The notes beneath the pieces were generated by a model. That model was not told the origin of the DNA. It saw only the letters and a program-made list of their open reading frames with translations, and ran no database searches. Of a DNA stretch of 37,194 nucleotides, positions 1 to 37,194 are shown one piece after another. This DNA comes from Jimgerdemannia flammicorona (Eukaryota). The position numbers and the translations under genes were made by a program. The stretch covers positions 1-37,194 of the forward strand of contig RBNJ01000194.1 in NCBI GenBank assembly GCA_003990765.1, in the 5' to 3' direction. The number at the start of each line of letters is the position of its first letter. The first letter of the stretch is position 1.

Positions 1-27
1 AAAAAAAAAAAAAAAAAAAAAAAAAAA
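1..27 (+). repeat. Poly(A) run at window edge, abutting the middle of a family-A LTR
   Basis: 27 consecutive A; the other family-A LTR copies have no such run at the equivalent site. Confidence 0.9.
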
Positions 28-933
28 GTGAATCTGATGAAAGTGAAGATGATGCACCCCTCCTTCACCCACCAACACCTTATCCAGCATATGAGACAGA
101 CGATGCTATTCTGTGAGATGGTGATGAAGTTCCAATGTATTATTATCTCAGTGAATAAGGAGAAGTAATCCACAAACCACTCTTCCTAGATGACTACTTC
201 ATCAGAGATGATGCAATCAATGGTGATGTCATTGAAGACTACCCAGACAGTGCCTAAACCTATAAATAGCCTAGCAGTCATAGTATAGTTAGATTAGCTT
301 TGTACAATATGACTGTGAACTGACTCAGCAGTCAGACAATCTCTTGATATGTCAGATCACACTTGTACTACATGACTGCATTCTGACTCAGCAAGACACT
401 TAGTGCTACATCCATATTCAGCATAGTCCAGATAGCCCCTCACTAGTATAAATACCCCCTCCCCCAGATCTCAGAATCTCAGACTCGAATACATAAGAAC
501 ATTCCTGAACACTTTCCTATAATATCCCTTCACATAACTACTCCTAGTATAGCAATATCATGAATAGCAAATAAACCTATTTAATAACCCACAAACCACT
601 CTTAAGTAAATCCACTCCCTGTTAGGTCCCACTCCTAACCCCACTATGAAATTTCCTAATTGGGTATTGTCTGCAGCAATACGCCAATTCAACTAAGCTG
701 GTCTTAGTTTCTTGAACTTCCTGAAATGTGGAAAATCCTGAACATCCAGAACTAGTCTGAAAAAGGACTTTGGTTGAGACATCAACCCAAACTTGAAATC
801 AATAAGCGTAGAGGATGTACTCCATATGAGATTGATCTTGACCATAAGAAAACAGTCTTCCAGAACATCCAGAACTTCCAGAAAACCCTTCCAGAACTAC
901 ATAATGGTTACCTTAAAAAGCAACTCTCTTACA
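28..933 (+). mobile_element. Partial family-A LTR (3' ~900 bp); a 3' or solo LTR
   Basis: Collinear with 25041-25954 and the equivalent part of 32418-34487. Ends ...CTCTCTTACA at 933 and is not followed by the PBS. Contains the end of the LTR ORF (TAA at 255-257) and a TATAAATA box near 447. Confidence 0.9.
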
Positions 934-1084
934 CCTTCACCATCATACCAAAATATATAAGAAAGACTTTAGTCCATGAATACCACTTTTTGATCCCCTA
1001 TTAGAGGTTATAGGATTAGCTAATTTTTCAGACTAGACTAATGAATAAGGATATATAAGAGAAGATTCTTATTCAGGAAGAATA

Positions 1085-2662
1085 TATAATGGTAATCTCA
1101 GAATAGTGACATCATTACAGAAAACAGCCTTTTCTTATAAGCTACTAGATTGAAGCATAAGAAGATTATATAGTATGACTCACCCAGGCTACAAAATGAG
1201 CAATAATGACTAACTATGAGCATTATAACTACAAGATAGATATCTCAAGGAATATAAAAGAAGGACTAAGGAACCACAGCAGCAACAACTCAAATAAGAC
1301 TCACAAAATTCCAAAATAGTCTAAAGACTTACTATAAATAAAATGCCTACTACTTGCTAAACCTCAAGGTTCAGGAACTACAAAGGATTCTCAGTCCAAG
1401 AAAGAATATTCCAAAATATCAGAAGAGCTATAAGAACTCACACCAGAAGGACTCCTAGCCTCAATCTGGGTACTGGTAACTCTTATCACTTTATCCTCTA
1501 CTACTGTAAAATGGAAACAAGGATCACTATTACTACTGAATACCTCTGGATATAGCAGAAATATGAAATAGAAAACCTCCTCTACTGGGAATTCTCTCAG
1601 ACTAGTCTCTAAGAGATATAAGATACCACTCTTATAGATATATATAAAATAAGGATAGCTAAGAAGATTTATTAGATCTTTAGATATACACTATAGTCAA
1701 TCTCCAACTTGGAGTATATCAGAGTCTCAGACTTCAAGAAATTATCAGCCTACTACACAAATGCACTAGAGGCCATAGTGGCCACAGAAGCCCAATCTAC
1801 TATCACCCTTAATAGTAATGAGGTAGAAGAGTTCTAGAATCTCATTCTCAAGAACAATCTTGATCAATTTCTGCAAGGATTGATCTCAGTATTCCAAGGC
1901 CCCAGTATCTAGGTTAGACCTCTCCAAGACCCCACATTTGTCTCTTATTTTGTAAAAGAGAATATCATAGACTGGAGAGCCCTGGATTTCCTTGCTCTTC
2001 TCTTTGCTACCAAATATGATGATGTCATTAGTGATGATATCATCTCACTAATTGGTGACATGTGTAAAGCATATGAAATGCATAATATATGCAAAACAGA
2101 CAAAATATTTACCAATCTCATTTCCTTTGAAGACATCCTAACCTCTAGCAGTGATGAAGATAAAGCCCTCAGAGTCTTGAACATTCTGCTCTGAGTTCCT
2201 TATATAACTATTTATCTGAACATCTAAATCTTCTGGTATCTTTTTCTTATATAACTGAAATCTATCAATATTTTAAACTTGTGCAATCATTTGTACAGAT
2301 ACTCAAATTTGTACTTATAACTGAAGTTTTCTGTATTCCAGTATCTTATTTATTTAGTTATTGAAATTTATATTTAGCTTTATATCTTAGCAACTATTGA
2401 ATTATATTTTGTATAAATATCTCTCTCATTTTCTTTAAAATAAAGTCAGTCTCCTCAGTTCCCTCAGTTCAATTATACTCAATTCTATACAAGCAATCTA
2501 AGAGATAATAAGATAGTTTAAAGATAAGAAGTTTGAGAACTATAAGATCTTGGAAAGGTACTCCAATAAGAACTTGCTTATAACAAACTTGTAGTTAGTT
2601 TAAGAGATATATCTTGAAGAGAATCTGATATATTTGAAGAACTCAGTGCCCACTATATAATA
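1085..2662 (+). mobile_element. Family-B solo LTR (~1.58 kb)
   Basis: End-to-end homologous to 3714-5315. Termini are mutated TG..CA (TATAAT...TAATA). Flanks GAATA (1080-1084) and GTATA (2663-2667) match 4/5, consistent with an eroded 5-bp TSD. No internal domain adjoins it. Confidence 0.8.
1175..2194 (+). pseudogene. Decayed LTR-internal ORF of family B (340 codons, unknown protein)
   Basis: One frame from ATG 1175 to TGA 2194 with no frameshift; internal stops are explicable as C>T/G>A changes. Reads ...QKYEIENLLYWEFSQTSL*EI*DTTLIDIYKIRIAKKIY*IFRYTL*SISNLEYIRVSDFKKLS... Confidence 0.7.
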
Positions 2663-3713: not shown

Positions 3714-5315
3714 TGTAATAGTGATCTCAGAATAGTGATATAATTATAGAAGACAGTCTTTCCTTACAAGCCACTAGATCAGAGTATAAGAAAATTATAT
3801 GGCATGACTCACTCAGGCTATAAGATGAGCAATGATGACTAATATAAGTCATTATGACTACAAGATAGACATCTCAAGGAATATAAAAGAAGGACTAAGG
3901 AATTATAGCAGTAGTAACTCAAATAAGACTTATAAAACTCCAAAATAGCTTAAAGACTCACTATAAACAAAATGTCTGCTACCTGCCAAATCTCAAGATC
4001 CAAGAACTGCTAAGAATTCTCAGTCTAAAAAATAATATTCCAAGATATCAGAAGAGCCATGAGGATCTATATAAGAAGGACTCCTAGCTTCAATCTGGGT
4101 ACTGGTGACCCTTATTACTTTATTCTCTACTGCTATGAAATAGAAACAAGGATCACTATTATTACTGAATACCTCTAGATATGGTAGAAGTATGAAATAG
4201 AAAACTTTTTTTACTGGGAATTTCCTCAGACCAGTCTCTAAGAGATATAAGATATCACCCCCATAGATGTATATAAAATAAGGATAGCTAAGAAGATTTA
4301 TCAGATCTTCAAGCATGCACTATGATTGATCCCCAACTTGGAGTATACTAGAGTCTCAGACTTTAAGAAATTGTCAGCCTGCTATACAAATGTACTGAAA
4401 GCCATGGTAGTTACAGAAACCCAATCCACCATCACTCTCAATAGTGATGAGGTAGAAGAGTTCTGGCATTCCATTCTCCAGGACAATCCAGACCAATTTC
4501 TATAAGGATTGATCTCAGTATTCCAAGACCCCAGTATCCAGATTAGACCTCTCCAAGACCCCACATTTATTCCTTATTTTGTAGAAGAGAATATCATAGA
4601 TTAGAGAGCCCCTGATCTCCTTACTCTCTCTGCTGTTGCTGAACATAGGATACATATCATTAGCAATAATGTCATTCTGCTAATTTGCAATATGTGCAAT
4701 ATGCACAAAGTATATGAAATATATGACATATATGAAATAGATGAAATATTTGTCAACCTAATTTCCTTTAAAGACATCCTGATCTCTGGCAGCAATGAAG
4801 ATGAAGCCTCCAGGGTCCTGAACATTCTGCTCTAAGTTCTTTGTATAACTGTTATTTTTCTGGTATTCTGATCTTATATAACTTAGAAATTCTTCTAGTA
4901 TCCTTTTCTGATATAACTGAAATCTACCAGCATCTTGAACTTATATAACTATTTATACAGATACTCAAATTTTTATTTACAACTAAAGTTTTCTGTATTC
5001 TAGGATTTTATTTAGTTATCAGAATTTATATTTAGCTTTATATCTTAGTAACTATTGAATTATATTTTATATAAATACCCCTCTTATTTTCTTTGAAATA
5101 AAGTCAGTTATCTTAGTTCACTTATACTCAATTCTATATAAGCAATTTAAGAGATAATAAGACAGTTTAAAGATAAGAAGTTTGAAGACTATAAGATCTT
5201 GGAAAGATACTCCAATAAGAACTTGCTTATAACAAACTTGTAGTTAGTCTAAGAGATATACTTTAAAGAGAATCTGATATATGTATTTAAAAGACTCAGT
5301 ATCTACTACATGACA
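3714..5315 (+). repeat. Family-B 5' LTR (~1.6 kb)
   Basis: TGTAAT...ATGACA, homologous to 1085-2662. TATAAATA at 5070-5077 and AATAAA at 5097-5102. Followed by ACT-TGGT. Confidence 0.85.
3804..4835 (+). pseudogene. Second copy of the family-B LTR-internal ORF (decayed)
   Basis: ATG 3804 to TAA 4835 (1032 nt). Includes IAKKIYQIFKHAL*LIPNLEYTRVSDFKKLS at 4284-4376. Several stops differ in position from the solo-LTR copy. Confidence 0.7.
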
Positions 5316-14300: not shown

Positions 14301-15066
14301 CTTGACTACTTCAATTTCAAGTAGCAATATGCAGTATATATTGTGGCATTGGTTATGTATAATGAACTTCGACTGCACGGCTCAATGTGCCACTTGGTGA
14401 AGCACGCGATGTATAACTGAAGGCATTGGTGACGTTTGCGGGTTGATGGTCACATGACAGGTCGTTTGATTCGTGCAGTAATTGATAACAGCGGGAAAAT
14501 GGAGGTTGATGGCTCGCTTGTCCATCTTGGTTAACTTGAAAGGTTCCTGGCGGTCATTTGGGTCTTTGGCAGTGGGTCGGTCTTTGGCGGTCTGGTATCC
14601 TTGGGTTCTTTAGCTATATTGCTGGGGTCTTGAATCTTGAATGGCGGTTGAATGGTGGCAGTCCGAATGGCAGTCTGAATGCGTGGCGGTCATGGTCTTG
14701 AATCCTTGGCTGGGTCTCGGGTCTCGAATGGCGGTCAGGTAACATTTTCTTTCCATGGCAAGAGAAAATTCTTTAACTCAAACTTCCGAGCAATCCGTTG
14801 CTTTAGATTGTTATCTTGTTTTCAGAATTATTCAGTCTCTTGGAGGCAGTGGTTTCTTTGTAATCCTTTTTACTTTTAAATACAAGCTGACTGAGGTTTA
14901 TTCACTCTAAGAATATGGGTTATTTATACAAGTTTGCTAGCTATGGGGGAGGGGGCGCAACTAAGGCTAAGGTATACTACGTTGTGGCAAACTTTGCTAT
15001 GCTATTGGCTTGTATGATGCGAGGTGCAGGCTATTGTTTACTATGGATTGGGTTATAGGAGATAGT

Positions 15067-15390
15067 AACGCTGGATTCAGATGAGCTGACAAAATGCTGA
15101 AAATGGTGGTACTGGGTAGCAACGCTGGATTCAGATGAGCTGACATGATACAATGATTGTTGCCAGAAGCGGTTGTGGAGGGTAGCAATGCTGGATTCGG
15201 ACCTGCTGACAAAATGCTGAAAACGGTGGTACTGGGTAGCAACGCTGGATTCGGATGAGCTGACATGATACAATGATTGTTGCCAGAAGTGGTTGTGGAG
15301 GGTGGCAATGCTGGATTCGGACCTGCTGACAAAATGCTGAAAACAGTGGTACTGGGTAGTAATGCTGGAAACGGACTTGCTGACAAAAGC
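15067..15390. repeat. Higher-order tandem repeat of alternating 54- and 66-bp units (120-bp period)
   Basis: Core AAYGCTGGAWWCRGAY..GCTGACA starts at 15067, 15121, 15187, 15241, 15307 and 15361. Confidence 0.95.
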
Positions 15391-15418
15391 TGGGTTCTCA
15401 CGGCTGATGGGTGGTACT

Positions 15419-16519
15419 CTAGAGGAAATAGTACCCTTTATTTGTGGCGGGCAAATCTTGCTGGGTTGTGATTTCTTCTTCATCATATCTCTCCTCAAAG
15501 GGGGGAAGTGCCGGCCAAGAGGTGAGGGGGTAGAAAAGTGGCCAGTCATCTTCAACAACATTTTCCAATCCCTGAACTGCTTGAATGCAGACAGAGGACT
15601 GGTAGACTCTCTGTTGCTCCTCTTCTTCTTCTGAAGACTTATCAGTTTCAGTGTCAGAGGGGGTTTCTTCAGGGGCAGGGCCTTGGAGTTCTTGGGCCTC
15701 CTCTTCAAAGACAGGAACTTCTTGGGCTTCTTCTTGATTCGGTTCCCAAATGATGAGGTGTGAATTGTGGCTGACAAGGTGGTGGGTGGTTGGGGTAGCT
15801 CCAATGGGTGTTTCTATGGTAATGGGCAGTCCTTCAAATATCTCCATAAGACTCATTAGGTGATCTTGATGGTTGTCTCGGAGTGGGGTGGTGTGGAAAC
15901 CTGGCTGAGTAGGTTCGGTTTGTTGGCTTCCTACGGCAATGCAGTTGCTGCCAATAGTGTTGGCTACTTCAGATTCTATCCAGTCAGTATCTTCAGTTGA
16001 AAGGCAGAAGAGGCTGCCAGCTGTTACTCCTTGCAAGTGTGCTATAGCCCAGAGAATATGGCGGAAGATTTGGTGGACATGGAGGGCTCTCTTGATTAGC
16101 TGGCTGGTGGTTAACATTTTGGCAATGAGGTCTTCCTGATCATCTTCTTGAGTCTCATTGTGAAGGCAGTGTCCGATTTCATAGTCATGCCAGAGGGTCA
16201 TTCGTTCAGTAGAGTCTTTGAGCTATTGGGTCATTATATACCGGTAGTTGATAAAGTATCCAAGGTCCTCGGTATAGAAGTTCAAGTGTTTGGAAGTATC
16301 AGGACGCCAGATGGCCTTCTTGATAGCTTCAAAGATCAGGGTCTTTGGGCCAGGCAAAGGGGTAGAGCAGCGGGAGGTCTGGTTGGATTGGCGAATGGGA
16401 GGTATTGTGTGATAGATACTTGGTTCTTTGGTGCCGATCCCTGAGGCGGAGTATGGTTCCTTAAATAACATGGTCTTCATTTTAGCTCGGATCATCTTGT
16501 CTTCTTTTGGGATGATCAC
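15419..16519 (-). pseudogene. Family-E LTR-internal ORF (up to 367 codons) with a single in-frame TAG; unknown protein with an acidic C-terminal half
   Basis: Track ORFs 16223..16519 and 15419..16201 are in the same frame, separated only by TAG (16223-16225) and 7 sense codons (MTQ*LKDSTERMTLW). The true start may be the ATG at 16495. Confidence 0.8.
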
Positions 16520-16733
16520 CTAATGGGTCAGACTGTCTATTTGATTGTCACGCCATTATATCATCTGATCTTAGCAGTCACTGGTACTCTGTTGTCAATT
16601 GCATATGTCACAATATATTTCTTGAGTAGTACTACTCCTGGGGTCAGTTCAATTTCATGATCAACTTCTTATGTAGGTGGTAGACCAGGTAGCTTGTCTG
16701 GAAAGACATTCTTGAATTCTTCTAGCATACTAT

Positions 16734-20775: not shown

Positions 20776-23676
20776 AGACTAATAGTATCAGAGAGAAAGA
20801 CTCAGCAATCAAAGCTATTTATATTAATCTTAAGTACAGACTCTCTATAAAACTAAATAATAAGTTCATCAGATCATTTAAAGTTATTGTACAAGTTTCT
20901 CTAATATCTTATAAACTAGTGCTACTAGACACTATCAAGATTCACCTAGTCTTTAATATTTAATGTCTTAAATAATATAATGAAAATAATGATAAACTAT
21001 TCCCAAATTGAACTATAAAACTACCTATATCTATCATTATTAATAACTATAAGGAATATAAAGTTGAATAAATTCTTAACAAATATAGTCACAAAAACTA
21101 TACAGAATATCTTATTAAATAAAAAGATTATCTGATCTATAATGCTATATAGAAACCCAGAGCAAACTCAGAATACTACCAACTTAGTTTAAGAATATGA
21201 TTCTTTGAATAACTAAAATACTCTAATACTTACTATTGCTATACTATATATACATATTATTTCTCTAAATATTATTAAAAGCACTCTTATAATTACTATG
21301 AATATCTTACTATACTCTTAGCAAATTAAGATAAAAGAAATACTAACTCTCTAGAAAATAGCAAAACTGAAAGCCAGCCTATTCTATCTATACTATTGGT
21401 GGAAAATAAAGTATAGATATTTAAGAAGATTTCTTAAAGGAAATTCCTCAGCAGTAAATAATATCAGAATCACTTCTGGTATATAGTATCAAATATATAA
21501 CTCTTTAATATATAAATTTAGTATTTTAGACAACTATACTATAAGTATATCACTTTTTTTAAAAAAAAAGATATTATTAGACTTTTGACTATTTAAATAG
21601 AGTAATAACACTAGATAAAATTAGAAGAACTTGATGAGAATGTCAAAAACTAAGAAGGGGAGAGTTGTAAGCATACAATCTCTAAGCTACTAAAATTACA
21701 CATCACTCTTAGAATAAATCTAAAAATTATATATAAGATTATAAAGCTAAGTCAAACTGAAGTCACAGATTACAAAACTGAGTCAATTCAAAGTTATAGA
21801 ACACAAGATATATAAAAACAGAACCTTACTAATTAAGACTAAAAGCATATAAACTGAGTATATAGTATATCAAAATAGAGAACTATAACAAATAAATCAT
21901 AACTCTTAAATATATATCCAGTTATGACTACTGAAGTTTACAACTGTATCTATATTAATATTTAGAATACTATTGTCAACTGAATCACAGTGCCTCTGTC
22001 TCTTATGAATATTTATAGCTTAACACTTCTCTACTTTATAGAAGTCTGATAGAATACCCTGAACTACTTAGTGAGGTTTACTGAATTGGACAAATCTCAA
22101 GCTACATACTATTAGATCAGCCATCTCCTGAAAGATATAGTTAATCACTACTATAATATAGATATTACTGAAATATCTCAATACCAGAAACTTATTATAT
22201 ATAAATATCAAAAACTCTTTTATAAATATACCATCTTTATTTTCTATCTCTAAATCACTACTACTAAAATGATTACTACTCTGACCTATAGCCAAATTAA
22301 TGATATAGTATAAGAATTCAACTAGAAATATATTAAGTATACACAAATTACAGATAGATCTTTTTTATACTCAGATGATTACATTCTATAAATATCTTAA
22401 GTAGAATATACTATGTAATAAATCTAGTTCAATAATAATAAAGCAAAAGACAATAATATCTCTGATATTAAAATAACTTCTAACTAAGAATTTCTGCCAA
22501 CTCTGATTACTCTACCAATCTTACTAATGAACTTACAATAGTTTATAATATTTATAAGACCTATTAGAATAATAACTACTGGTATAAATACTAATTTGCA
22601 TTCATACTTAACTATTTTAACTATAATAAAGAAATAAGAAAACACAATCTGTATCTTCAGACAACTCTTAAGATAGAACTAACAACTCTATTTTCTGAGT
22701 ATAAGTGATATAAAGAATAACTATTAGCCTATTATAATCTGCAATATATAAAACTGTAATCTACTAAAAGTATACTAATAGTAAAATTTAATAAAAGCAA
22801 AGATGATATATCTCTTCTCTGCCCACCAACACTATATCTAGCATATGAAATAGACAATACTATCCTGTAGAATAATAACTTTATTTCAACATATTATTAT
22901 ATGAATAAATAGAGAGATATAATCTAAGAACTACTCTTTCTAGATGACTATTTTATTAGAAATAATATCATTAATAGTGATCTTATTGAAAAGTATCCAG
23001 ATAGTGTCTAAAATCTATAAATAGCTTAGCAGTTATTTGTATAATTAGATTAGTCTATTTTATATAACTGTACTCTAACTTATCAGTCAGTTGATTTTTT
23101 GATATATTAGTTCATACTTTATACTATATGACTACATTCTAATTTATCAAATACTAAAGTACTGTATCTATATTTAGCCTAGTCTAGATAGCCTCTTATT
23201 AGTATAAATACTCTCTTTCTCAGATCTCAGAAACTCAGATAGAAATTGAGATAAAAATCAGATAAATACTTCTCTATATAAATATTTTTTCATATACTAC
23301 TCTTAGTATTAGTAAATAAATTTATTTAATAATTTACAAACTACTCTTATGTAAACTCATACTATATTAGATCTCACTTCTAACTAGATCCAGAAATTTT
23401 CTAATTAGATATTATTTATAGTAATTATCAATTCAACTAAGCTAGTCTTAATTTCTTGAACTTTCTAAAATAAGAAAAATTCTAAACATTCAAAATAAAT
23501 CTAAGAAAAAACTTTAGTAGAGACATCAACTCAATCTTGAAATCAATAAATATAGAGAATATACTTTATATGAAATTGATCTTAATCTTAAGAAAATAAT
23601 CTTTCAGAATATCTAGAACTTTTTGAAAACTCTTTCAGAACTATATAATAGTACTCTAACAAAGTACTCTTTTATA
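20776..23676 (+). mobile_element. 3' part of a heavily mutated family-A copy (end of integrase, chromodomain, PPT, 3' LTR)
   Basis: Collinear with ~31540-34487; PPT AAGAAGGGGAGAG at 21652-21664. Confidence 0.85.
21666..23676 (+). repeat. Family-A 3' LTR, strongly AT-shifted copy (2011 bp)
   Basis: TGTAAGC start after the PPT; ends TTTATA (eroded CTTACA). Contains a frameshifted remnant of the LTR ORF at 21924-23011. Confidence 0.85.
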
Positions 23677-23913
23677 TCTTGTGATCTAGAGAACTTACAT
23701 AATGAGGCTTATTTAACATCTCCTCTCAGATCTATACTATAGTATTGTCTTTTATCTTAATATTCTTGACCCAATTCACATCATTCTCACTCTTTCTATC
23801 TCTAAAATGTGCCTCTTCTATTAAGATATATCTTTCTCTATATGAAGATATATCTAGATATACTCTATATAGCCTCTCTATTATACTTCTTCTTTCTTGC
23901 TCACCTAGCTCTG

Positions 23914-25954
23914 TGTAAGCACACAACCTCTAAGCCACAGAAATCACATATCACTCTCTGAACAAGCCACCGAAATCATATGCAATAGCTGAACAAATCT
24001 GGAAATCACCTGTATGATCACAAAGCTGAGTCAATCCAAAGTCACAGAATACAAGACTTACACAAACAGAATCTTACCAATCAGGACCAAATATATATAT
24101 ACCAACCACCGAGACATGCCGAAATAGAGAACCAAAACAAACAATAACCACAACTTCTGAATATATACAAATATGACCACTGAGATCTACAACTGCATTC
24201 ATGCTAACATTTGGAATACCATTGTCAACTGAGCCACACCCTCTCTGCCCCTCATGAATATCTATAGCTTAGCACCCCTCTACTTTGTGGAAGCCCAATG
24301 GAATGCCCTGAACATGCTTAGCAAGGCCCACTGAATCAGATAAATCTCAAGCTACTATCAGATTGGATGCCTCCTAGAAGACATGGTCGAACACTACCAT
24401 GACATGGATATTACCCAGATGTCTCAACATTAGAAACTCATTGCCTGTAAACATCGAGAACTTTTTTATGAGTACAGCACCTTTATTCTCTATCTCTGAG
24501 TTACTACTGCTAAAATGGTTACTACTCTATCCTATGGCCAAATCAATGATATGATACAAGAACTCAACCACAAGTACCTTAAGTATGTTCAGACCACAGA
24601 CAGAACCTTCCCACACCCCGATGACCATATCCTGCAAATGCCTCAAGTTGGATATACTATGAAGGATGTCTACAATATAATTTGATTTGATAAAGACAAA
24701 GCAGAAGAAAATGATCTCTCTGACACCAACATAACCTTGAGCCAAGGATTCCTGCCAACCTTGATCACTCCACCAACCTTGCCAATAAACTTACAACAGT
24801 TCATAACTACCTATGAGATCTATTGAGACAATGACCACTAGTATGAATACTAACCTACATTCACCCCCAATTACTTCAACTATAATGAAGAGACTGGAGA
24901 ACACAACCTGTACCTTCAGACAACTCTTGAGATTGAACCAACCACTCCATCACCTGAGTATGAGTGACATGAATTACAGCCACTAGCTTACTACAACCCT
25001 GTGATTCATAGTGCTATAACCTATAGAAGATATGCAGATAGTGAATTCGATGAAAGTGAAGATGATGCACTTCTCCTTTGCCCACCAACATCTTATCCAG
25101 TATATAAGATGAATGATGCTATTCTGTGGGACAGTGATGAAGTCCCAATGTATTACTACCTCAGTGAATAAGGAGAATTAATCTGTGAATAACTTTTCCT
25201 AGATGACTACTTCATCAGAGATAATGCCATTGATGGTGATATCATCAAAGACTACTCAGACAGCATCTAAATCTTAAATAGTTTAGCAGTTATAGTATAG
25301 TTAGATTAGCCTTATACAATGTGACTGTAAACTAACTCAGCAGTCAGATGATCTCCTAACATGTTAGGTCACCCTTATATACATGACTGCATTCCGACTC
25401 AGCAAAGCACTAAGTGCTACATCTATATCTAGTATAGTCTAGATAGCCCCTTACTAGTATAAATACCCCCTCTTCCAGACCTCAGAATCTTAGACTTGAA
25501 TATTTGAACAATCTAAACACAACTCCTGAATACTTCCCTACAATATCCCTTCACACAACTACTCCTAGTATAGCAATATTATAAATCATAAATAAACCTA
25601 TTTAATAACCCATAACTCACTCTTAAGTAAATCTGCTCCCTGTTAGGTCCCACTTCTAACCCTGTCACAAAAATTCCTAATTGAGTATTGTCTGCAGTGA
25701 TATACTGATTCAACTAAGCTGGTCTTAGTTTCTTGAACTTCCTGAAATATGAAAAATCCTGAACCTCCAGAACTAGTCCAAAAAAGGACTTTGGTTGAGA
25801 CATTAATCCAATCTTGAAATCAATAAGCATAGAGGATGTACTTTATATAAAATTGATCTTGACTATAAGAAAACAGTCTTCCCGAATATCCAGAACTTCC
25901 AGAAAACCCTTCCAGAACTATGTAACAGTTATTCTAAAAAGCAACTCTTTTACA
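23914..25954 (+). repeat. Family-A 5' LTR (2041 bp)
   Basis: Direct repeat of 32418-34487; TATAAATA at 25458-25465 and AATAAA at 25591-25596. Confidence 0.95.
24173..25270 (+). pseudogene. Family-A LTR-internal ORF (366 codons), 5' LTR copy
   Basis: ATG 24173 to TAA 25270 is 1098 nt, the same length as the 3' LTR copy; stops are transition-type only. Confidence 0.8.
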
Positions 25955-25957
25955 ACT

Positions 25958-25972
25958 TGGTAGTAGTGGTTT
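25958..25972 (+). promoter_or_regulatory. Putative primer-binding site of family A
   Basis: TGGTAGTAGTGG 3 nt after the 5' LTR. It resembles a TGGTAGC-type initiator-Met PBS after C>T decay; the tRNA identity is an inference. Confidence 0.6.
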
Positions 25973-25982
25973 ACAATCTAAT

Positions 25983-28900
25983 TCTGCTTCAAGATGCTTC
26001 CTCACCCCACTACAAACCCTCTGAGAATTCTTACAAGTTGGTATAAAGCCCAACCTCTGAACTGGAATTTATTCCAAACTATCTGATAATCTGAAGAGAA
26101 TTGAACCTGATATATAAGGACAATTTGACCTTCACACCTGCAACAAGTGGGACAAACTTCATTCAAAGAAAGAAGTACTCTAGTTAAATCAGCAAATAGG
26201 TAAAACTCTATTCACCAAACTCCTTGCTCTACACCCAGTAAGTCAAGATGAAGAAGGTCTTATAATAGCCTTCTTTACTCTTCTCAATAAGAGTTTTGTT
26301 AGCTCCACAAATCTGAGCAACCTAGGATAACTAGCAGTAGTCTTTCTAGCCTTAGTCCCTCATAAAGCCCAGGCCTCTATAGCCAAGTAGCTCAACTCTA
26401 CTAACTTTCACTACACCAGAACTAAGACTGCATTATACTACTGATTCCAGAATAGCAAGGCCTACCATATTCTTAAGGAAGAAGTGAGAGAAACCCTTCA
26501 TCAACAGTCTGACCCCAAACCTGAAGCAGGCTCTGCTATTACTCTATCTGAATCTGAAACCAATACCAAACCAGAACTCAACTTTGAATTAATTCCATCT
26601 GAAATCAGATATATAACTGATTCTGTCTACTTTGATGCTGAGTAAACCCAACTACATGAGGACTAAACTGAGGAGGAGAAGGAGTATCTCAGTGAATTTG
26701 ATCCCAGATATATCACTGAAGGAGACACACCTCCATTAGGACAGAATATACCTACATAGCAGCAAATAGCTATTTATCAAGCCCTTACTCCAGACCCACA
26801 ACTACTACTCCAGCAACTTACACAGACTCAAAGAACACCCTCACACTCTGTACCAGTATCTCAAGTAGTATCAGTAACACTACTACCAATAGTCCAACCA
26901 CCTCCAGTAAACAATATGGTAAACCAACAGATTCTAGACCTCACAGCCTAAGTAGCAATAATGGTAGCAACTATTACTACCTTAGCTGAACAGACCTGAC
27001 CTACCAAAAATCTGAGCCTACCTATCTTCAATGGTACTGCACAAGAAATCCAAAGCTTTATTAGTATAGTTGATACCAACTTCAAAGCCAATCAATAGAC
27101 CAATGAGTGAGTTGCTGACCACCTTCTGATAAACAATCAAGACCATACTCTGGAACAACTCTTTGCTACTACTACAGCCTATGTCTGCTGAGTTGTTACA
27201 TTCTTCTGAGGACCTGCTGAAGAATGGTGGCAAACTCTTCCTGAAAAATCCCTCACATAAAATACCCAATCTATAGTAGTTGCTCAGAATGCAGCAAATA
27301 ATACTCCAGGATATGGAGTCCATCCTGCAGCCCCTGGACTCAAACAACTCATGATTGCTCAATACTACAGTGAAACTATGATTACCGAATCTCAAGTAAA
27401 ACTCTGCAACCTCAAATTCGATATATATAACAAGAAAGAATTTGAAACCTTCTATACAAAACTCAAGTCACTCCTGAACACTGTTAGCCTAGGATATATT
27501 TCCAATGATGAGACATGAAATGGTACAAGAGCAGACCATTTATTTGATGCCCTACCTGAATGGCTTACTAGAAAAATCTGAGAACAAGGCTGCCCAGTTA
27601 GTTGTAATCATCAACAATAGTGCTTGGTAAGAATCAAGACTATGGTCAAGTGAATCCTAACAGCTGGACCAATTCTACCCCAAAGACAATTCAACAACAA
27701 GGAAAAGACTTGGACCAAGAAGGAAGAACCTAAGCATGAAGCATCCTGAGCTCTCTCTACATCCACCCCTTGGACATCCAGAAATCACAAACCCACCCAG
27801 CCGAGTACCTTCAAGAAACTCACTGAAGGAGAAAGGAATGAACTTCAAAGAAGTGGAGCATACTTCTATTGCTAAAAGACAGGAAATATGGCCAGTGCCT
27901 GCCCCAACTGAAAACCCCGAACAGCAACACAAGCAACTATTACTACTCTGCACCACCTCAATAACCTGATCACCAGAATACTAGACTTTGTCAAGTTAAG
28001 TCAAACTGCTAAGGCCCCAACCAAAGGAAGTCAAAAGGCAGCTGGATATGATCTATATGCAGCCAAAGAAGCTACAGTTTCCAACCAAGAAGTTAAACAA
28101 ATCTATATAGGAATTAGCATACAAATCCCTGAAGGATATGTTGGAAGAATATACTATCACAGCAGCCTAGCATTGAAAGGACTCTCAGTGGAAGGAGAAG
28201 TCATTGATGAAAATTATACAGGTGAAATTATTATTCTCATCTGAAACCATAATTGGACACTCTTTAAGATTCCCATTGGTTTCTGTATTGCCCAGATTCT
28301 ATTTGAAAAAATTGAGTCAACTCTGACAGTTAAGGAAGTCTCTGAACTACTGCCCACCATCTGAGGATCCAAAGGATTTGACTCATCAAACAAGGCCCCA
28401 GCCCAATCTACTATGAAGAAAGAAGAACAATTCTATAAGAAAATCGAAGATAGATATATACCAAGTGGCTGATACTCCCATGGTATTGGAATATACTCTT
28501 TGCGAATAATTGATGATTGCTTCTCTTGTATCAACAAACTAGCTCAAAGAAGAACCAACAGAAGGAAAGCTCCTATAACTGAAATCACCACTATTGGATC
28601 AGACAAACTGCTTATACTTCAAGCTTTTGTCAACTGAGCACCTGTTAAGATTATGATAGACAGTAGTGCTTCAGGCAACTTCATCAATGAAGAAATAGCC
28701 AACAGACTCAAGGTCTTCACCTCTCTAGTATAATAAACTCAAGCAGTTGCCACAACTGATGAAACCTCCCATGTCATTAGCAAAGAAGTCTGCAATCTAC
28801 CCTTCTGAATTAGTGACTACCAAGTACATGTTACCCTCCAGATCATACCACTTCCAGACAATAAAATCATCCTTAGAACTCTATAGTTAAAACAAAAAAA

Positions 28901-31900
28901 CCCCATGATTGATTGGGTAAACCATTCTCTGATCATCAAAAAAGGATGCCACAACTTTAAACTACAAGGTGAAAAAGACCCACTCAGCTCTAGTGACCCT
29001 GGACCAAAGATCACCCACATTAACAAGCTACAGCTCAAGAAATTGGTCAAGAAATGCCCTCTCTTTGCTATCTCCATCTATCCATCCAAAGGAGAACCCA
29101 AGAACTCTAAAGAAGACCTTTCCAAAGTTGATAGCCATGTTAGACCCTTACTTCAGAAATTTCAAGATATATTTTCAAAGAAGCTTCCAAAAGGCCTACC
29201 TCCTAAACAAGCAGTAGACCATACTATCAAAACTATCCTAGATACCAAGCCAGCCTTCAAGTCAATCTACCACATATTGCCAAGAAAAATCAATGTACTC
29301 AAGAAAGAAATTAATGAACTCCTAGAATAAGGATTCATTAGACCTAGTGTATTACTCTATGGTGCATCAGTCCTCTTTGTTGTCAAGAAAGGAGGAGATC
29401 TGCAAATGTGTATCAATTACCAAGACCTCAATGAACAGACCATCAAGAACTGTTGCCCACTACCCAGAATCGATAAAATATTTGATAGGTTTACTAACCC
29501 ACAATTCATAAGCTCTTTTGACCTACAGAATGGTTACTGGCAAATTGCTATGAAAGAAGAAGATATTTACAAGACAGCCTTCTGAATCTGCTATGGACAC
29601 TTCAAGTTCCTGGTTATGCCTTTCAGCTTAACTAATACTCCTGCAACCTTCCAGATACTAATGAATACCATCCTATATCCATACCTGGACAAATTTATTA
29701 TTGTCTACATTAATGACATCTTAGTCTTTGAGAAAACTGACTCTTTGCAAAACTCAGCAAATGTGAAAGAAATCCAATTTCTTGAACACATTGTCATACC
29801 AAATAGAATCAAAGTAGACCCCAGCAAAATCTCTGCAATCAAGGATTGGCCCAGACTCAAGAAGCTGAAAGACCTCCAGTCATTCCTGGGATTAGCAAAC
29901 TATTACAGATAATTTATTACCAACTTTACCAAAATTGCTATCACTCTTACCCAAATGACTAAGCACAATAAGAAAGGAGAACAGCCCTGGACCATGAAGC
30001 AAGAGAAAGACTTCAACAATCTTGTAAATTGGGGACCTAAACAAGATACAGCCTTTCAAGTACTAAAAGATGCCTTAATAACTACTCCAGTACTTCAAGT
30101 GGCAAACTCTGCCCTGCCATATGAAGTTACTACTGATGTATCTGACCTAGCCCTTGGAGTAGTACTTATGCAAGAAGGACACCCTGTGGCCTATCACTCT
30201 CACAAATTCAATAATGCTGAGATTAACTATACTACCTATGTATGAGAAGGAAATGCTAGCCATTATAGATACTCTGATCAAATGGTGACCATACCTAGAA
30301 GAAGCACACTTCACTATATTGACTGACCACAAGTCATTAGTCAATATCAAGATACAGGCTACCCTTTCTTGAAAGCAAGCCAGATGGATGAAAGTTCTCA
30401 CCAACTTTGACTATGAAATTCAGTATCGCTCCAGTAAGAAAAACATTATTGCCGATGTAATCTCCAGACCACCTATTGAAGAAGTTATCCAAACTCTCAC
30501 CTTGGTTACCAACACTATCATGAAACAAATTATCATAGTATGTGCTAATGATAAGGAAGCTCAAGCACTCTGAGAAATCCTGAGCAGTGATAATACTGAC
30601 AAGTATATTCTGTATAACCAATACTAACTAAAGGACAATACTATCTACTACAAGGACAGATTATATGTTCCAAACAACTGAGACCTCTGAAGGACTATCC
30701 TATTTGAATATCATGATACCCCTATAGCTAGACATTTAGGATTTGACAAATGCTATAAAGTTATCTCCTAAAACTTCTATTGGCCCCATATGGCAGATTA
30801 GCTAAAGACCTACATCACTTCTTGTGATACCTGCTAACAGAATAAGTCATCAACACTAGCAAAACCTGGCTTACTCCACCCTATCTCAGTACCATCCACT
30901 AATTAGGAACAAATCTCTATAGACTTCATTGTATAACTACTCTGAACTAAGAATGAGAAAGATGCAATTATTGTCTTCATGGACTATCTCAGTAAACAAG
31001 CCCACTTTGTACCAACTACCACTACCACAATAGCACCAGACATAGCTATACTTTTGTTTGACAACATCTTTCACTATCATGGTCTTCCTAAGATTATTGT
31101 TAGTAACTGAGATCCAAAATTCACCAGCCATTTTTAGAAAGCCCTCTATATATACCTTGGAACAAAACTTGCACTATCTACAGTATTTCACCCTGAAACT
31201 AATGGTCAAACTGAAAGAATGAACCGAACTCTGGAATAAATACTAAGGAACTATATTTCCTATAGATAAGATAATTAGTACAAACACCTCACCACAGTTG
31301 AGTTTGCCTATAACAACAGCAAACAAGTCTCTCTTGAAATGACCCCATTTTTTGCCAATACTAGACAAAACCCAAACACTTCTCTGACACTTATCCAAAC
31401 TACTGATGAACTCTCTATAGTTGAAGCTATTGAAGAATTCTTACTCCAAATGTGCAATCTAAACCAGATTGCAATCGAGAACTTATTATGAGCTCAAGAA
31501 TAACAGTCACAGTATGTCAATCAACACTATCAAGAAGAGACTTTTGATATTGGAGAGAAAGTTCTACTGGACATCCAAGGATACTGAGTTGATAACCTCA
31601 AGTACAGACCATCTACAAAACTGAACAGCAAATTCATTGGACCATTTGAAGTTATCTCACAAGTCTCTCTAACCTCCTATAAATTGGTACTACCAGATAC
31701 CATTAAGATTCACCCAGTCTTCAATGTTCAACATCTCAAGTAATACAATGAAAATAATGATGAACTATTCCCAAACTGGACTACCGAACCACCTGTACCT
31801 ATCATTATTAATGACCAAGAAGAATATGAAGTTGAACAAATCCTCAACAAACATGACCACAAGAACCACCCTAAGTACCTTGTTAAATGGAAAGGTTACT

Positions 31901-31986
31901 CGATCTATGATGCAATATAGGAATCTAAGACCAATCTCTAGAATGCCATTGACTTAGTTCAGAAATATGATTTCTTAAATAACTAA
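25983..31986 (+). pseudogene. Family-A gag-pol pseudogene: N-terminal extension, capsid, Zn knuckle, dUTPase, PR, RT, RNase H, integrase, chromodomain
   Basis: Capsid LPIFNGT...GPAEEWW; knuckle AYFYC*KTGNMASACP (~27860); PR IMIDSSASGNFI (28659); RT YINDIL with a deletion after it; RH VTTDVSDLALGVVL; IN HDTPIARH..CDTC and [20 protein letters not shown] motif; chromo YEVEQILNK..YLVKWKGY (~31820-31940). Landmarks share one frame up to the 4-nt insertion at ~30240. Confidence 0.92.
27984..28390 (+). pseudogene. dUTPase domain of family A, between the Gag Zn knuckle and protease
   Basis: AAGYDLY, HSSLA (RSS-type), GEVIDENYTGEI, CIAQILF, *GSKGFDSS; in frame with both the knuckle and the protease. 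Confidence 0.93.
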
Positions 31987-32403
31987 AACCAAATACCCAA
32001 CATCTATCAGTACATACTATATATTATCCTCCTGAACATTATAATTATCATGAACAAAATCAAGAACTCAGCAAGTTAAGACAAAAGAATACTGACCCTC
32101 TGGAAAAATATGTAGCAAAACTGAAAGCCAGCCATTCTCTCTATACTACTGATGGAAAATGAGGCATAGATATTTAAGAAGATTTCTTAGAGGAAATTCT
32201 CCAGCAGTAAATGACATCAGAATCACTTCTGGTATATGGTATTGAATATATGACCCTTTAATGTATGAATCCAACATATTAGGCAACTGAACTATGAGTA
32301 TACCACTTCTGAGAAAAATGAACTTCACTGGACTTTTGACCTCCCAAATAGTATAACAATACTAGAACAAAATTAGAAGGCCCCGATGAGAATATCAAAA
32401 GCT

Positions 32404-32416
32404 AAGAAGGGGAGAG
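32404..32416 (+). promoter_or_regulatory. Polypurine tract of family A
   Basis: AAGAAGGGGAGAG, 1 nt before the 3' LTR. Confidence 0.9.
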
Positions 32417-32417
32417 T

Positions 32418-34487
32418 TGTAAGCACACAACCTCCAAGCCACAGAAATCACACATCACCCTCTGAATAAGCCACCAAAATTACACATGACAGCTGAATAA
32501 ATCTGGAAATCACCTGCATGATCACAAAGCTGAGTCAAACTGAAGTCACAGCACATAAAGCTGAGTCAATCTGAAGTCACAAAATACAAGACTTACACAA
32601 ATGAGATCTTACCAATCAGGACTAAATACATATACCAATCACTGAGATATATCGAAACAGAGAACTAAAATAAACAACAACTATAACTTCTGAATATATA
32701 CAAATATGATCACTGAGATCTATAATCACATTTGTGCTGATATTTGGAATGCCATTGTCAACCAAGCCACACCCCCTCTACCCCTCATGAATATCCATAG
32801 TCTAGCACCCCTCTACTTCATGGAAGCCTGATGGAATGCTCTAAACATGCTTAGTGAGGCCCACCAAATTGGACAAATCTCAAGCTACTACCAGATTGGA
32901 TGCCTCCTAGAAGATATGATTGAACACCACTATAACACAGATATTACCCAGATGTCTCAATATCAGAAACTCATTGCCTGCAAATATCAAGAACTCTTTT
33001 ATGAGTACAGCACCTTTATTCTCTATCTCTGAGTTACTACTACTGAAATGGTTAGTACTCTGTCCTATGGCCAAATCAACAATATGATATAAGAACTCAA
33101 CTACAAGTACCTTGAGTATGTTCAGACTACAGACAGAACCTTTCTACACCTCAACAACCATATCCTGCAAATGCCTCAAGTCGGATATACCATGAAGGAT
33201 GTCTATGATATAATTCAATTTGACAAAGATGAAGCAGAAGACAATGATCCCTCTGACACTGACATGACCTTGAGCCAAGGATCTCTGCCAATCTTGATTA
33301 CTCTGCCAACCTTACCAATGAACTTACAATAGTTCATAACCACCTATGAGACCTATTGAGACAATGACCACTAGTATGAATACCAACTTATATTCACCTC
33401 CGATTACTTTAACTATAATGAAGAGACTGGAGAACACAATCTGTACCTTCAGACAACTCTCAAGATCAAACCAACCACTCTACTACCTAAGTATGAGTGA
33501 CATAAACCACAGCCACCAGCTTACTACAACCCTGTGACTCATAGTGCTATAACTTATAGAAGATATGCAGACAACGAATCTGATAAAAGCAAAGACAATG
33601 CACCCCTCCTTCACCTACCAATATCTTATCCAGTATACAAGATGGATGATGCTATTCTGTGGGATAGTGACAAAGTCCTAATATATTACTACCTCAGTGA
33701 ATAAGGAGAATTAATCTGCAAACAACTCTTCCTAGATAGCTACTTCATCAGAGATGATGCCATCAATGGTGATGTCATCAAAGACTATCCAGATAGCATC
33801 TAAATCTTAAATAGTTTAGCAGTCATAGTATAGTTAGATTAGCCTCATACAATGTGACTGTGAACTAACTCAGCAGTTAGATGATCTCTTGACATATCAG
33901 GTCACTCTTATACTACATGACTGCATTCCAACTCAGCAAAGCACTAAGTGCTACATCCATATCTAACATAGTTCAGATAGCCCCTCACTAGTATAAATAT
34001 CCCCTCCCCCAGACCTCAGAATCTCAGACTTGAATACTTGAACAATCTGAACACAACTCCTGAATACTTCCCCACAATATCCCTTTACATAACTACTCCT
34101 AGTATAGCAATATCATGAATAGCAAATAAATCTATTTAATAATCCACAACCCACTCTTAAGTAAATCTACTCCCTATTAGATCCTACTCCTAACCCTGTT
34201 ATGAAAATTCCTGATTAGGTATTGTCTGCAGTGATATGCTGATTCAACTAAGCTGATCTTAGTTCTTGAACTTTCTAAAATACAGAAAATCCTGAACCTC
34301 CAGAACTAGTCCAAAAGAGGACTTTGGTTGAGACATCAATTCAATCTTGAAATCAATAAGCATAGAGGATATACTCCATATGAAATTGATCTTGACCATA
34401 AGAAAATGGTCTTCCAGAATATCCAGAACTTCCAGAAAACCCTTTCAGAACTATATAACAGTTACCCTAAAAAGTAACCCTCTTACA
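32418..34487 (+). repeat. Family-A 3' LTR (2070 bp)
   Basis: TGTAAGC...CTTACA followed by the TSD CTCTG. Confidence 0.95.
32706..33803 (+). pseudogene. Family-A LTR-internal ORF (366 codons), 3' LTR copy
   Basis: ATG 32706 to TAA 33803; contains track ORF 32847..33032 (SSYYQIGCLLEDM...KLIACKYQELFYEYSTFILYL) and continues in frame past TGA to ...DVIKDYPDSI*. Confidence 0.8.
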
Positions 34488-35011
34488 CTCTGCTCAGTAC
34501 ACCCCTCTTTATATTCTCTGCTGATTGCCTATTCTCCTACTAATATCTTATTCACTACCTATATTCTCTCCTTTCTTGTATTAGACTGAACCCATGTCTC
34601 TATACCAGATATAGCTTCTGCATTAGTACAATATCTGATGCTACTACTATCAGTCTCTCTGACTACAAAATTCAACTTCTTGGCCATTAGTTGAGCACTG
34701 TATACAAAGGCTATATTTATATACCTATCTCTCATTTGTTACATTTACAGACTTCTCTTACTTGTACTCATACTGCTCACATTACCAGTGATATATTCCC
34801 TCTCTTATCTCACCACTAATCATTTCTCCCCACCTCTGTATGGCCCATATCACCAGCCTCTCTCTTCTACTCACATGATTCATATCAACAGCCTCTCTTT
34901 ATCTCTTCTCCTCTCACACACCACCTGTCTTTCCATTTGAGCCATACCTAACCTCTATACCTCACTCTCTCTACAACTACCTCATGCTCTCTATAACTCT
35001 TTTATTTAGAT

Positions 35012-35693
35012 CAGTTTTATTTATTATATCCACTCTTCTTATATCTTTTTCTCTTTCCAAATATATGAACATTGAACTTCAATTGTGGGTTTTCTCTTCA
35101 CTATAGTTCTGATGTCTATAAGTTGGATTCAAATAGCTCTTCATGATGCAACTTTACTCGAGGAGAAGCATAGAGTTCAAATATTACAGCTAGACATTAA
35201 ATGAGGGGTTTCATTAGAAATTGCAGGTCAATAGTTGCAGAAATGTTTCAGATATCATATAGACAGTACAAGGGTTTTGGTGTAGCATAGATCTTTGGTG
35301 CCAATATGCTCACTTTTATATTAGCTAGAAAACACCTCTCTATCATACTGTCCAATATACATACCTGTATCATATCTGGTTTTACTCAAATGTTTCATAC
35401 ATATGCTTTATATATACTCAGTATACATATTCATTTTTGCCACCTCTCTCCCTCCTGTCTTCTGTACATCTTGATTTTTGTTTTATATACTGTTGGTTCT
35501 GGGCCAGTTTTGTTCATTGCATCCACTCTTCTTATACCTTTTTCTCTTTCCAAATATATGAACATTGAACTTCAATCATGGTTTTTCTCTTTACTGTGGT
35601 TCCAATGTCTGTGAGTTGGGTTCAAGTGGTTCTTCACAATACAACTTTACTTGAGGAGAAGTGTAGGGTTCAAACATTACAGCTAGACATTGA
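35012..35693. repeat. Two diverged ~190-bp direct repeats (35012-35200 and 35505-35693)
   Basis: Shared CAGTTTT...CTCTTTCCAAATATATGAACATTGAACTTCAAT...ACAGCTAGACATT at a constant 493-bp offset, differing mostly by transitions. Confidence 0.85.
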
Positions 35694-36195
35694 ACACAAT
35701 TTGCTGATGAAGGTTATTCCGCATGCCAGTATGACATTGGCCACCCAACAATGATAACGACTGTAATTCTGAAGGATAAACTCAACATTGGACTCCTAAA
35801 ATTGTTCTAGTTGGTGTTCCAGCAAATTAGTGAGGAAGAATTGTTCACATGTCTGTTTATTTCAGAGTAAACCCCACCGTTTTCGGGCGCAAAATATACA
35901 TAATGATTTAATGTTACGAAATGAGAGGTATGCTTAGATATTTCAGCTAGATGACAGCAGACAAAACCACACTCGCAACCCCTCTGAATGAGAATCTAGT
36001 GTTTTTGGATAGGACCCTCGTGTTACTTTGATCTGATGCAAAGATGAAAAAGATATGTTAAACCCAAAATGAATCCATCGAACCAATCCTCGAGAACTCA
36101 CTCAATCACCATCAAGCACCTATCGACAGCTCAATCCTCAAACCTGCCTCACACCAACCAGGCCCCCCCCCCCTCAAACAAAATAATGCCAACTT

Positions 36196-37116: not shown

Positions 37117-37194
37117 TGAGAAATATGAAGACAAGAGGGTGCCCACAAATATGTCAATTATCCGATTCTTCCCCCCCTCCCCCCCCCCCTCCCC

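What the first reader, a model, noticed from the sequence alone, without database searches (positions are those of the whole stretch)
24173..25270. Family-A LTR ORF keeps an exact 1098-nt frame in both LTRs
ATG-to-TAA length is 1098 nt in both LTRs, whereas the non-ORF parts of the LTRs differ by indels (2041 vs 2070 bp overall). Some stops are copy-specific and repaired by the other copy (N*A vs NQA, I*F vs IQF, MIQE vs MI*E), and all are one transition away from CGA, CAA, CAG or TGG. This supports a real ancestral ~365-aa protein with a helical N-half, an acidic linker (DKDEAEDNDPSDTD) and a Tyr/Pro/Asp-rich C-half.
Basis: seen in the sequence. Interest (0 to 1): 0.75.

Follow-up and report, generated by a model that had tools for sequence, protein, structure and literature searches.

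The report
Selected gene inside fungal retrotransposon LTRs
The 2-kb terminal repeats of an abundant fungal jumping gene each carry a real protein gene of an unnamed family, broken in both copies here but intact elsewhere in the genome, which probably helps the element switch itself on.

Summary
Observation confirmed. Both LTRs of a full-length fungal Ty3/Gypsy chromovirus (23914-34487) hold a 1098-nt frame in U3, with 12 and 8 internal stops. The two-LTR argument is weak: LTRs are identical at insertion, and the indel contrast has p about 0.05. Other copies prove the gene. Of 93 distinct genomic copies, 18 have no internal stop. Shared transversions are 38 of 56 synonymous (15% expected; dN/dS about 0.08, like gag), and the LTR flanks show no periodicity. 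The N-terminal ~140-aa helical domain is shared with LTR ORFs of two other families in this window and with a 153-aa gene after integrase in a fourth; the reverse transcriptases of A and of B/D are only ~30% identical. No Pfam, PHROG, NCBIfam or PDB match; folding failed. A promoter-like module precedes the ATG, so solo LTRs may be whole genes. A non-autonomous subfamily spread without the gene, which fits action in trans. Best guess: a trans-acting activator (helical DNA-binding domain plus acidic tail), inferred only; no expression evidence. The scan noted this family repeatedly on other pieces of this genome. Layout resembles MMTV sag; the protein family appears undescribed.

The parts
23909..23913 (+). 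5-bp target-site duplication, left; same 5 bases at 34488-34492
23914..25954 (+). 5' LTR of family-A element (TG...CA, 2041 bp)
24027..24172 (+). Promoter-like module ahead of the LTR gene: TGAGTCA site (24027-24033), TATA-like run (24092-24101), A/C-rich leader; function inferred
   Evidence: site in 69 of 69 copies, TATA-like in 67 of 69
24173..25270 (+). LTR accessory gene, 365 codons, 12 internal stops (dead copy); codons ~1-140 shared helical domain, ~171-365 acidic aromatic tail
25271..25465 (+). Enhancer-like stretch (usually with TGACTCA) and the presumed main LTR TATA box (25458-25465), downstream of the gene, which places the gene in U3
   Evidence: TATAAA 150-230 nt after the stop in 68 of 69 copies
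25958..25972 (+). Primer-binding-site-like stretch (not matched to a tRNA here)
   Evidence: sequence
26916..32000 (+). Broken gag (CCHC) - dUTPase - protease - RT - RNase H - integrase - chromodomain; approximate ends
   Evidence: Pfam dUTPase, RVP_2, RVT_1, RT_RNaseH; CCHC, integrase and chromodomain recognised by eye
32404..32417 (+). Polypurine tract, upstream of the gene-bearing 3' LTR
32418..34487 (+). 3' LTR (2070 bp)
32706..33803 (+). Second copy of the LTR gene, 8 internal stops
21666..23681 (+). Older, more decayed family-A LTR; frameshifted gene remnant at about 21924-23008
1..937 (+). End of another family-A LTR with the last ~80 codons of the gene
1343..2191 (+). Family-B LTR gene (LTR about 1087-2658), distant homolog, broken
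3972..4832 (+). Family-B LTR gene, second copy (LTR about 3716-5311), broken
15419..16480 (-). Family-C gene inside a solo-LTR-like insert (about 14342-16612, TG...CA, TA-rich target duplication), distant homolog, one internal stop

Best explanation
Shown: a selected accessory gene lies wholly inside U3 of a fungal Ty3/Gypsy chromovirus, so it is copied into both LTRs and stays in solo LTRs. The two window copies were killed after insertion by C-to-T decay that is strongest at CpG. Shown: its N-terminal ~140-aa domain belongs to a family also carried by Gypsy families B and C (in the LTR, each with its own acidic tail) and D (bare 153-aa gene after integrase). Inferred: a second promoter in the first ~290 bp of the LTR makes a short mRNA for the protein, separate from the genomic RNA that starts after the downstream TATA. 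Inferred, weakest step: the protein works in trans as a regulator of its own family's LTR; the helical domain binds DNA or chromatin, and the acidic, aromatic-rich tail recruits the transcription machinery, as foamy-virus Tas does from an internal promoter. Inferred history: a 3' accessory gene was taken into U3 when the polypurine tract came to lie upstream of it, or the reverse. Step odds: real gene 0.97; homology with B, C, D 0.9; own promoter 0.65; nuclear trans-regulator of some kind 0.55; activator specifically 0.4.
For: Purifying selection: 38 of 56 shared transversions synonymous vs 0.15 expected, dN/dS 0.08; 10 of 16 in 12 copies chosen only by non-gene LTR sequence; flanks flat at 12/14/11 and 9/10/7 by position; gag control also 0.08 (8 of 11). 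Stop load tracks loss of GC (Spearman -0.83) and no site is a stop in more than 29 of 93 copies. Homology: a profile of B, C, D alone scores three A proteins 24.7-31.5 bits; best of 2000 shuffles 14.2. Promoter-like module in 69 near-whole LTRs: TGAGTCA upstream 69 of 69, TATA-like 67 of 69, A at -3 69 of 69, leader 87% A+C vs 62% in the LTR; family B has the same layout. Tails of A, B, C are 21-23% acidic, 8-14% aromatic, with no transmembrane stretch. Subfamily A2 keeps the downstream enhancer and TATA, lacks the gene and, in 6 of 6 checked, RT-RNase H-integrase, yet made 13 of 29 copies picked by the LTR 3' part. B, C and D have family-specific tandem or palindromic units before the TATA.
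Against: No transcript or protein evidence. No fold: models at pLDDT 32 and 35, no structural match, no family match, no PDB sequence match. The shared domain is not basic (net -6 in A, +1 in B, -6 in C, -2 in D) and only one basic column is kept across families, a poor fit to a DNA-binding domain. D lacks the tail. Family A's enhancer has only a two-fold repeat, and the motif counts used motifs chosen after looking. U3 repeats are commonly host-factor sites (general knowledge). A2's spread shows only that the gene is not needed in cis. Direct A-B profile comparison was not significant (E 0.092). 29 of 69 copies have an extra ATG in the last 60 nt of the leader.
Confidence: 0.4

Rival explanations
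1. Anti-silencing factor: the protein binds its own family's LTR and blocks or removes DNA methylation or heterochromatin, as VANC proteins do for plant Mutator-like elements.
For: Repeats here are strongly CpG-depleted and mutate fastest at CpG, so methylation pressure is high. The domain diverges fast between families (15-27% identity) while constrained within each, and enhancer repeats are family-specific. VANC as anti-silencing factors: PMC13547354, passages.
Against: No similarity to any known family. A-family copies decay heavily, including both window LTRs. No methylation data.
Confidence: 0.22
2. Post-transcriptional helper: binds the genomic RNA or Gag for export, translation or packaging (like CERV of Cer1), made from a spliced or 3'-LTR-driven RNA.
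For: Position at the 3' end of the genomic RNA; in D the gene overlaps the end of pol with no LTR promoter of its own. CERV precedent: PMC10309623, abstract.
Against: A and B each have a promoter-like module right before the ATG. The protein is strongly acidic (net -47), with no arginine-rich RNA-binding stretch.
Confidence: 0.15
3. Effector aimed at the host or at rival elements (cell-cycle, meiotic or nuclear-competition advantage, or restriction of other retroelements) rather than at its own LTR.
For: Very high copy number with self-contained units, including solo LTRs (14 of 53 whole LTRs classed solo). The well-conserved tail (dN/dS 0.06; blocks kept in P0003) could be a protein-binding surface.
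Against: No host-gene homolog or known effector domain found; selection was seen only on element lineages.
Confidence: 0.15
4. Not a functional gene: the equal length comes from LTR identity at insertion and chance.
For: True for the two-LTR comparison alone (p=0.046; antisense frame with fewer stops in the 5' LTR).
Against: outside homologs P0003 (66-70% identical) and P0004; the gene-less A2 middle shows no periodicity (12/10/14) and many frameshifting indels.
Confidence: 0.02

Closest known systems
MMTV sag (whole ORF inside U3, with U3 promoters upstream of the classical one); PMC12789967, passages read
   Same: A complete ORF inside U3, duplicated in both LTRs, with a promoter-like module upstream of the main promoter.
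   Different: Sag is a type II membrane superantigen of a betaretrovirus; this protein has no transmembrane stretch, no detected similarity, and sits in a fungal env-less Gypsy element.
Foamy-virus Tas, made from an internal promoter and activating the LTR; PMC12789967, passages read
   Same: Two-promoter logic proposed here; 3' accessory gene.
   Different: The foamy internal promoter lies in env, outside the LTR; no sequence similarity was found; transactivation is not shown here.
Additional ORFs (aORF/ORF3) of LTR retrotransposons: plant env-like and antisense aORFs and Botrytis Boty (PMC7264820, part 1 of 3 read); bdelloid ORF3 types shared across lineages (PMC5408684, passages)
   Same: Family-wide, conserved extra gene at the 3' end, shared between distant lineages; family D has the classical pol-to-LTR position.
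   Different: Those described lie in the internal region; in A, B and C the gene is inside the LTR. Not env-like, and no match to GDSL, DEDDy or any other Pfam family.
Fungal chromodomain Gypsy elements with dUTPase (PMC2864245, passages read)
   Same: Element A has gag-CCHC, dUTPase, PR, RT, RNase H, integrase, chromodomain, TG...CA ends and a 5-bp TSD.
   Different: The one LTR length seen in the passages read is 440 bp (a spikemoss element); the figure legend names an 'add. ORF' of unknown function whose position and sequence I could not see. Supplements not read.
crapaud LTR subfamilies of Podospora (PMC10787394, search-listing abstract start and passages)
   Same: Subfamilies that differ by an exchanged 5' part of the LTR, like A versus A2.
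   Different: Short LTRs (800 bp for both together); no LTR gene in the passages read.

Membership tests
Ty3/Gypsy chromovirus | LTRs TG...CA, TSD, PPT, pol order PR-RT-RH-INT | tested here: met
Ty3/Gypsy chromovirus | Chromodomain after integrase | tested here: inconclusive
   Motif recognised by eye; the Pfam scan did not cover that frame
Ty3/Gypsy chromovirus | RT phylogeny inside Chromoviridae | not tested
   Only pairwise RT identities
Conserved additional ORF of an LTR retrotransposon | Present in most copies and under purifying selection | tested here: met
   absent from the non-autonomous A2 subfamily
Conserved additional ORF of an LTR retrotransposon | Located in the internal region (between pol and LTR, or before gag) | tested here: not met
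   Inside the LTR, downstream of the PPT; met only by relative D
env or env-like ORF3 | Transmembrane or signal segment | tested here: not met
   Highest 19-residue hydropathy 0.74
MMTV sag | Sequence homology; membrane protein | tested here: not met
   No Pfam or PDB match; no TM
Tas-like transactivator (works like) | Binds cognate LTR and activates it | not testable with these tools
   Only composition and promoter layout
Tas-like transactivator (works like) | Made from its own promoter | tested here: inconclusive
   Motifs conserved; no usable RNA data
DUF1016_N / YhcG N-terminal helical domain (resemblance recalled) | Match to PF17761 | tested here: not met
   No match in the genome at E 10, with zero first-look candidates; none in protein scans
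Classical CpA-directed RIP (context recalled) | C-to-T mostly at CpA | tested here: not met
   CpG 0.33/0.19, CpA 0.11/0.12, others 0.04-0.07; fits methylation-linked decay better

The most novel reading that the evidence does not exclude
A family of element-encoded, sequence-specific regulators, each matched to its own LTR repeats, has been taken into U3 in several distant fungal Gypsy lineages. Each LTR, solo ones included, is then a self-contained transcription unit, so thousands of scattered mini-genes can switch on or unsilence full-length and gene-less (A2) relatives in trans: a complex-retrovirus-style control circuit in a fungal retrotransposon.
Probability: 0.3. Interest if true: 0.85.

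Novelty: new variant of a known kind. Interest (0 to 1): 0.62.

Why it matters
LTRs of retrotransposons are treated as non-coding, and solo LTRs as spent remnants. Here the LTR carries a gene under selection as strong as gag, in a family of roughly 4,000 copies (19 gene-equivalents per Mb in a 400-kb sample biased to long contigs). The same unnamed domain sits inside the LTR in three families and after integrase in a fourth, a natural series for studying how U3 genes such as sag and nef arise. If it is a transactivator or anti-silencer, it would help explain how these elements inflated a genome that methylates and decays its repeats. My seven completed literature searches returned no report of an LTR-borne gene in a fungal retrotransposon; the library lacks most subscription papers.

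Tried and rejected
Structure: both AlphaFold jobs failed (pLDDT 31.9 and 35.5); Foldseek on the B model gave nothing at E 0.001. The complex predictor was not available, so self-association is untested. Families: no significant Pfam, PHROG or NCBIfam match (best E 0.009, judged chance); PDB best E 0.14 and 0.18. ESM Atlas: top scores 0.78 and 0.89, hypothetical clusters only. Search of 1.84 billion representatives: P0003, P0004 and one repetitive protein at 4.6e-05 that I treat as chance. Metagenome scan with the A protein found none; with the four-family alignment one D-type locus; viral contigs none; prokaryote contigs were not searched. DUF1016_N not met. A recalled likeness to an unnamed helical domain common in arbuscular-mycorrhizal fungal genomes could not be tested. 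Expression: no RNA holder listed; the one run guessed as RNA gave patchy contigs, 19 of 30 bins with a hole in the gene; no evidence either way. Antisense gene: rejected (codon-aligned antisense frame 3 of 56 synonymous; the weaker signal in another antisense frame, 21 of 56, is expected as a shadow of the sense frame). Longer N-terminus: frames are open further upstream in many copies, but a 2-nt indel just before the ATG segregates in 16 of 29 copies and there is no periodicity upstream. The integrase control was cut one base out of frame; 11 of 14 shared changes fall on the true third position, and its printed dN/dS is void. The indel tally is biased (copies picked by the gene) and was replaced. 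A gene in the A2-specific LTR middle: not supported.

Full report
Setting. The window is contig C194 of G000 (231 Mb). The genome holds 44 matches to the fungal-specific transcription-factor domain PF04082, so the host is a fungus; I did not place it further. The finding lies in the 5' LTR of a full-length element, 23914-34487, with TG...CA ends, a 5-bp target duplication and a polypurine tract at 32404-32417. The interior reads as broken gag-CCHC, dUTPase, protease, RT, RNase H, integrase and chromodomain (Pfam for dUTPase, protease, RT, RNase H; the rest by eye). Fungal chromodomain Gypsy elements with dUTPase are known (PMC2864245, passages).

Observation. Both LTRs hold a 1098-nt ATG-to-stop frame (24173-25270; 32706-33803). 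The four LTR indels (31, 2, 1, 1 nt) lie outside it. There are 12 and 8 internal stops, 5 shared. The LTRs differ by 243 transitions and 4 transversions: a fairly young insertion hit by heavy C-to-T decay. Across copies the decay is strongest at CpG (0.33 and 0.19 on the two strands), then CpA (0.11, 0.12). LTRs are identical at insertion, the indel placement has p=0.046, and one antisense frame of the 5' LTR has fewer stops than the claimed frame.

Is it a gene? Yes. A protein search of the genome gave 112 best-scoring copies, 26 without stops (this set is biased to intact copies). Among 93 distinct full-length copies from 117 loci, 18 have no internal stop, stop number falls with GC (Spearman -0.83), the ATG is kept in 91 and the terminal stop in 92, and no site is a stop in more than 29. 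To avoid the C-to-T noise I counted transversions against one natural copy. Those shared by two or more copies are 38 of 56 synonymous against 0.15 expected (p 4e-19; dN/dS about 0.08), 42 of 56 at third positions. The result holds in 42 copies picked by DNA (27 of 41) and in 12 picked only by non-gene LTR sequence (10 of 16). LTR parts before and after the frame are flat. Both halves are constrained (0.12 and 0.06). Gag gives the same 0.08 (8 of 11). Sites are not phylogenetically independent, so the p-values are indicative. In the unbiased set of 29 loci, 12 cover the whole gene; they have 0-4 stops in frame against 14-18 and 25-38 in the other sense frames, and every indel inside the gene is private to one copy, whereas several outside are shared by 10-14 copies. 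Outside this genome there are P0003 (66-70% identical) and P0004. DNA contigs of three runs from three studies cover 28-30 of 30 bins of an LTR stretch, and the three indels listed lie outside the gene.

The protein family. The window's family-B LTRs (about 1087-2658 and 3716-5311) hold another frame. All 12 B copies that I fetched for having few stops have open frames, 11 of 246-287 aa and one of 228, under selection (13 of 34 synonymous, dN/dS 0.29). Direct A-B comparison is not significant (BLAST E 0.71; hhalign E 0.092). But the B profile finds a third family, C, at E about 1e-19, including a solo-LTR-like insert in this window (14342-16612, minus), and weakly a fourth, D. D is a 153-aa gene that overlaps the end of pol, ahead of the polypurine tract and a ~460-bp LTR; an environmental contig, L186, shows the same layout. 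In leave-one-family-out tests, each family scores well above 2000 shuffles: A 24.7-31.5 bits vs best shuffle 14.2; B 47-64 vs 14.6; C 69 vs 9.0; D 41-45 vs 19.6. A is the most distant member. The shared part is ~140 aa with about 20 hydrophobic or aromatic columns and one basic column kept. A, B and C add unrelated acidic tails (21-23% D/E); none has a transmembrane stretch. RT identity is 29-30% between A and B or D, and 65% between B and D, so the domain spans distant lineages. In the window plus 40 unselected 10-kb stretches the profile hit A 11 times, B 10, D 6 and C 3. No Pfam, PHROG, NCBIfam or PDB match, and folding failed.

How it could be expressed. The presumed main TATA lies about 190 nt downstream of the stop (68 of 69 near-whole LTRs), with TGACTCA sites before it (62 of 69), so the gene is in U3. 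A second module precedes the ATG: TGAGTCA in 69 of 69, a TATA-like run 60-100 nt upstream in 67 of 69, an A/C-rich leader and A at -3 in 69 of 69. Family B has the same layout; C was not clear. Of 53 whole A LTRs, 14 were classed solo, 26 as 3', 1 as 5' and 12 unclear. So a lone LTR may be a whole transcription unit. This is inferred from motifs; there is no RNA evidence.

A natural deletion control. Of the 29 loci picked by the LTR 3' part, 13 belong to a subfamily A2 that shares the last ~740 bp (and, where the start is held, the first ~49 bp) but has a different ~760-bp middle. That middle has no codon periodicity (12/10/14 in 15 copies) and many frameshifting indels. All 6 A2 copies checked lack RT, RNase H and most of integrase by the same two deletions. 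A2 thus multiplied without the gene in cis while keeping the enhancer and TATA. This fits a trans-acting product, but also a merely helpful one.

Mechanism. I favour a trans-acting activator: helical domain for DNA or chromatin, acidic aromatic tail for activation, own promoter for early expression. The precedent is foamy-virus Tas, and for layout MMTV sag, whose whole ORF lies in U3 with upstream U3 promoters (PMC12789967, passages). B, C and D carry family-specific tandem or palindromic units before the TATA, and L186 has a different unit again; these motifs were chosen after looking, and family A has only a two-fold repeat. Against: the domain is not basic, D has no tail, and nothing is shown about fold, location or binding. 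Rivals are an anti-silencing factor (VANC-like; PMC13547354, passages), an RNA export or packaging helper (CERV-like; PMC10309623, abstract) and a host-directed effector.

Known versus new. Extra ORFs in LTR retrotransposons are known in the internal region (PMC7264820, first third read; PMC5408684, passages; an 'add. ORF' in a figure legend of PMC2864245, whose figure and supplements I did not see and which may bear on novelty). Genes inside U3 are known from retroviruses. I found no report of such a gene in a fungal retrotransposon. The scan's own notes report this family many times on other pieces of this genome; they are unchecked and not counted as support. Verdict: a real gene of an unnamed family in an unusual place, function inferred; new variant of a known kind; interest 0.62.

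Noticed in passing
L062, L063, L066-L070, L075, L090, L150, L154: Non-autonomous subfamily A2: ~1.5-kb LTR with a gene-less middle, and (6 of 6 checked) two internal deletions matching window 29175-31765 and 31875-32343.
   Followed up: yes
L147 about 5600-5800 (minus): An ORF right after integrase of a fifth Gypsy type (RT 32-37% to the others) scores E 0.049 with the family profile; possible further member.
   Followed up: partly
window 14342-16612 (minus): Family-C solo-LTR-like insert inside another element's pol; keeps CpG (o/e up to 0.77) and 48% GC, unlike its neighbours, so it may be younger or less methylated. Tandem repeat at 15063-15385.
   Followed up: partly
window 5909-9292: Family-B gag-PR-dUTPase-RT; dUTPase follows protease here but precedes it in family A.
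   Followed up: partly
window 20825-23681: Older family-A 3' end (integrase, chromodomain, LTR) at 22-29% GC, followed closely by the younger element at 23914.
   Followed up: partly
window 9294-10832 (minus): Further family-A integrase fragments in reverse, nested in the B element.
   Followed up: no
L186 after 6256: D-type relative (68% identical) with a different 18-bp tandem unit in its LTR, a hint of protein-repeat co-variation.
   Followed up: no
window 35012-35201 and 35505-35694: 190-bp direct repeat, 85% identical, outside the element.
   Followed up: no
window 36000-37194: 49% GC stretch with normal CpG and two short open frames; possibly host sequence.
   Followed up: no
L150 697-1758 (minus): Open frames that look like a DDE transposase (recalled, not tested).
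   Followed up: no
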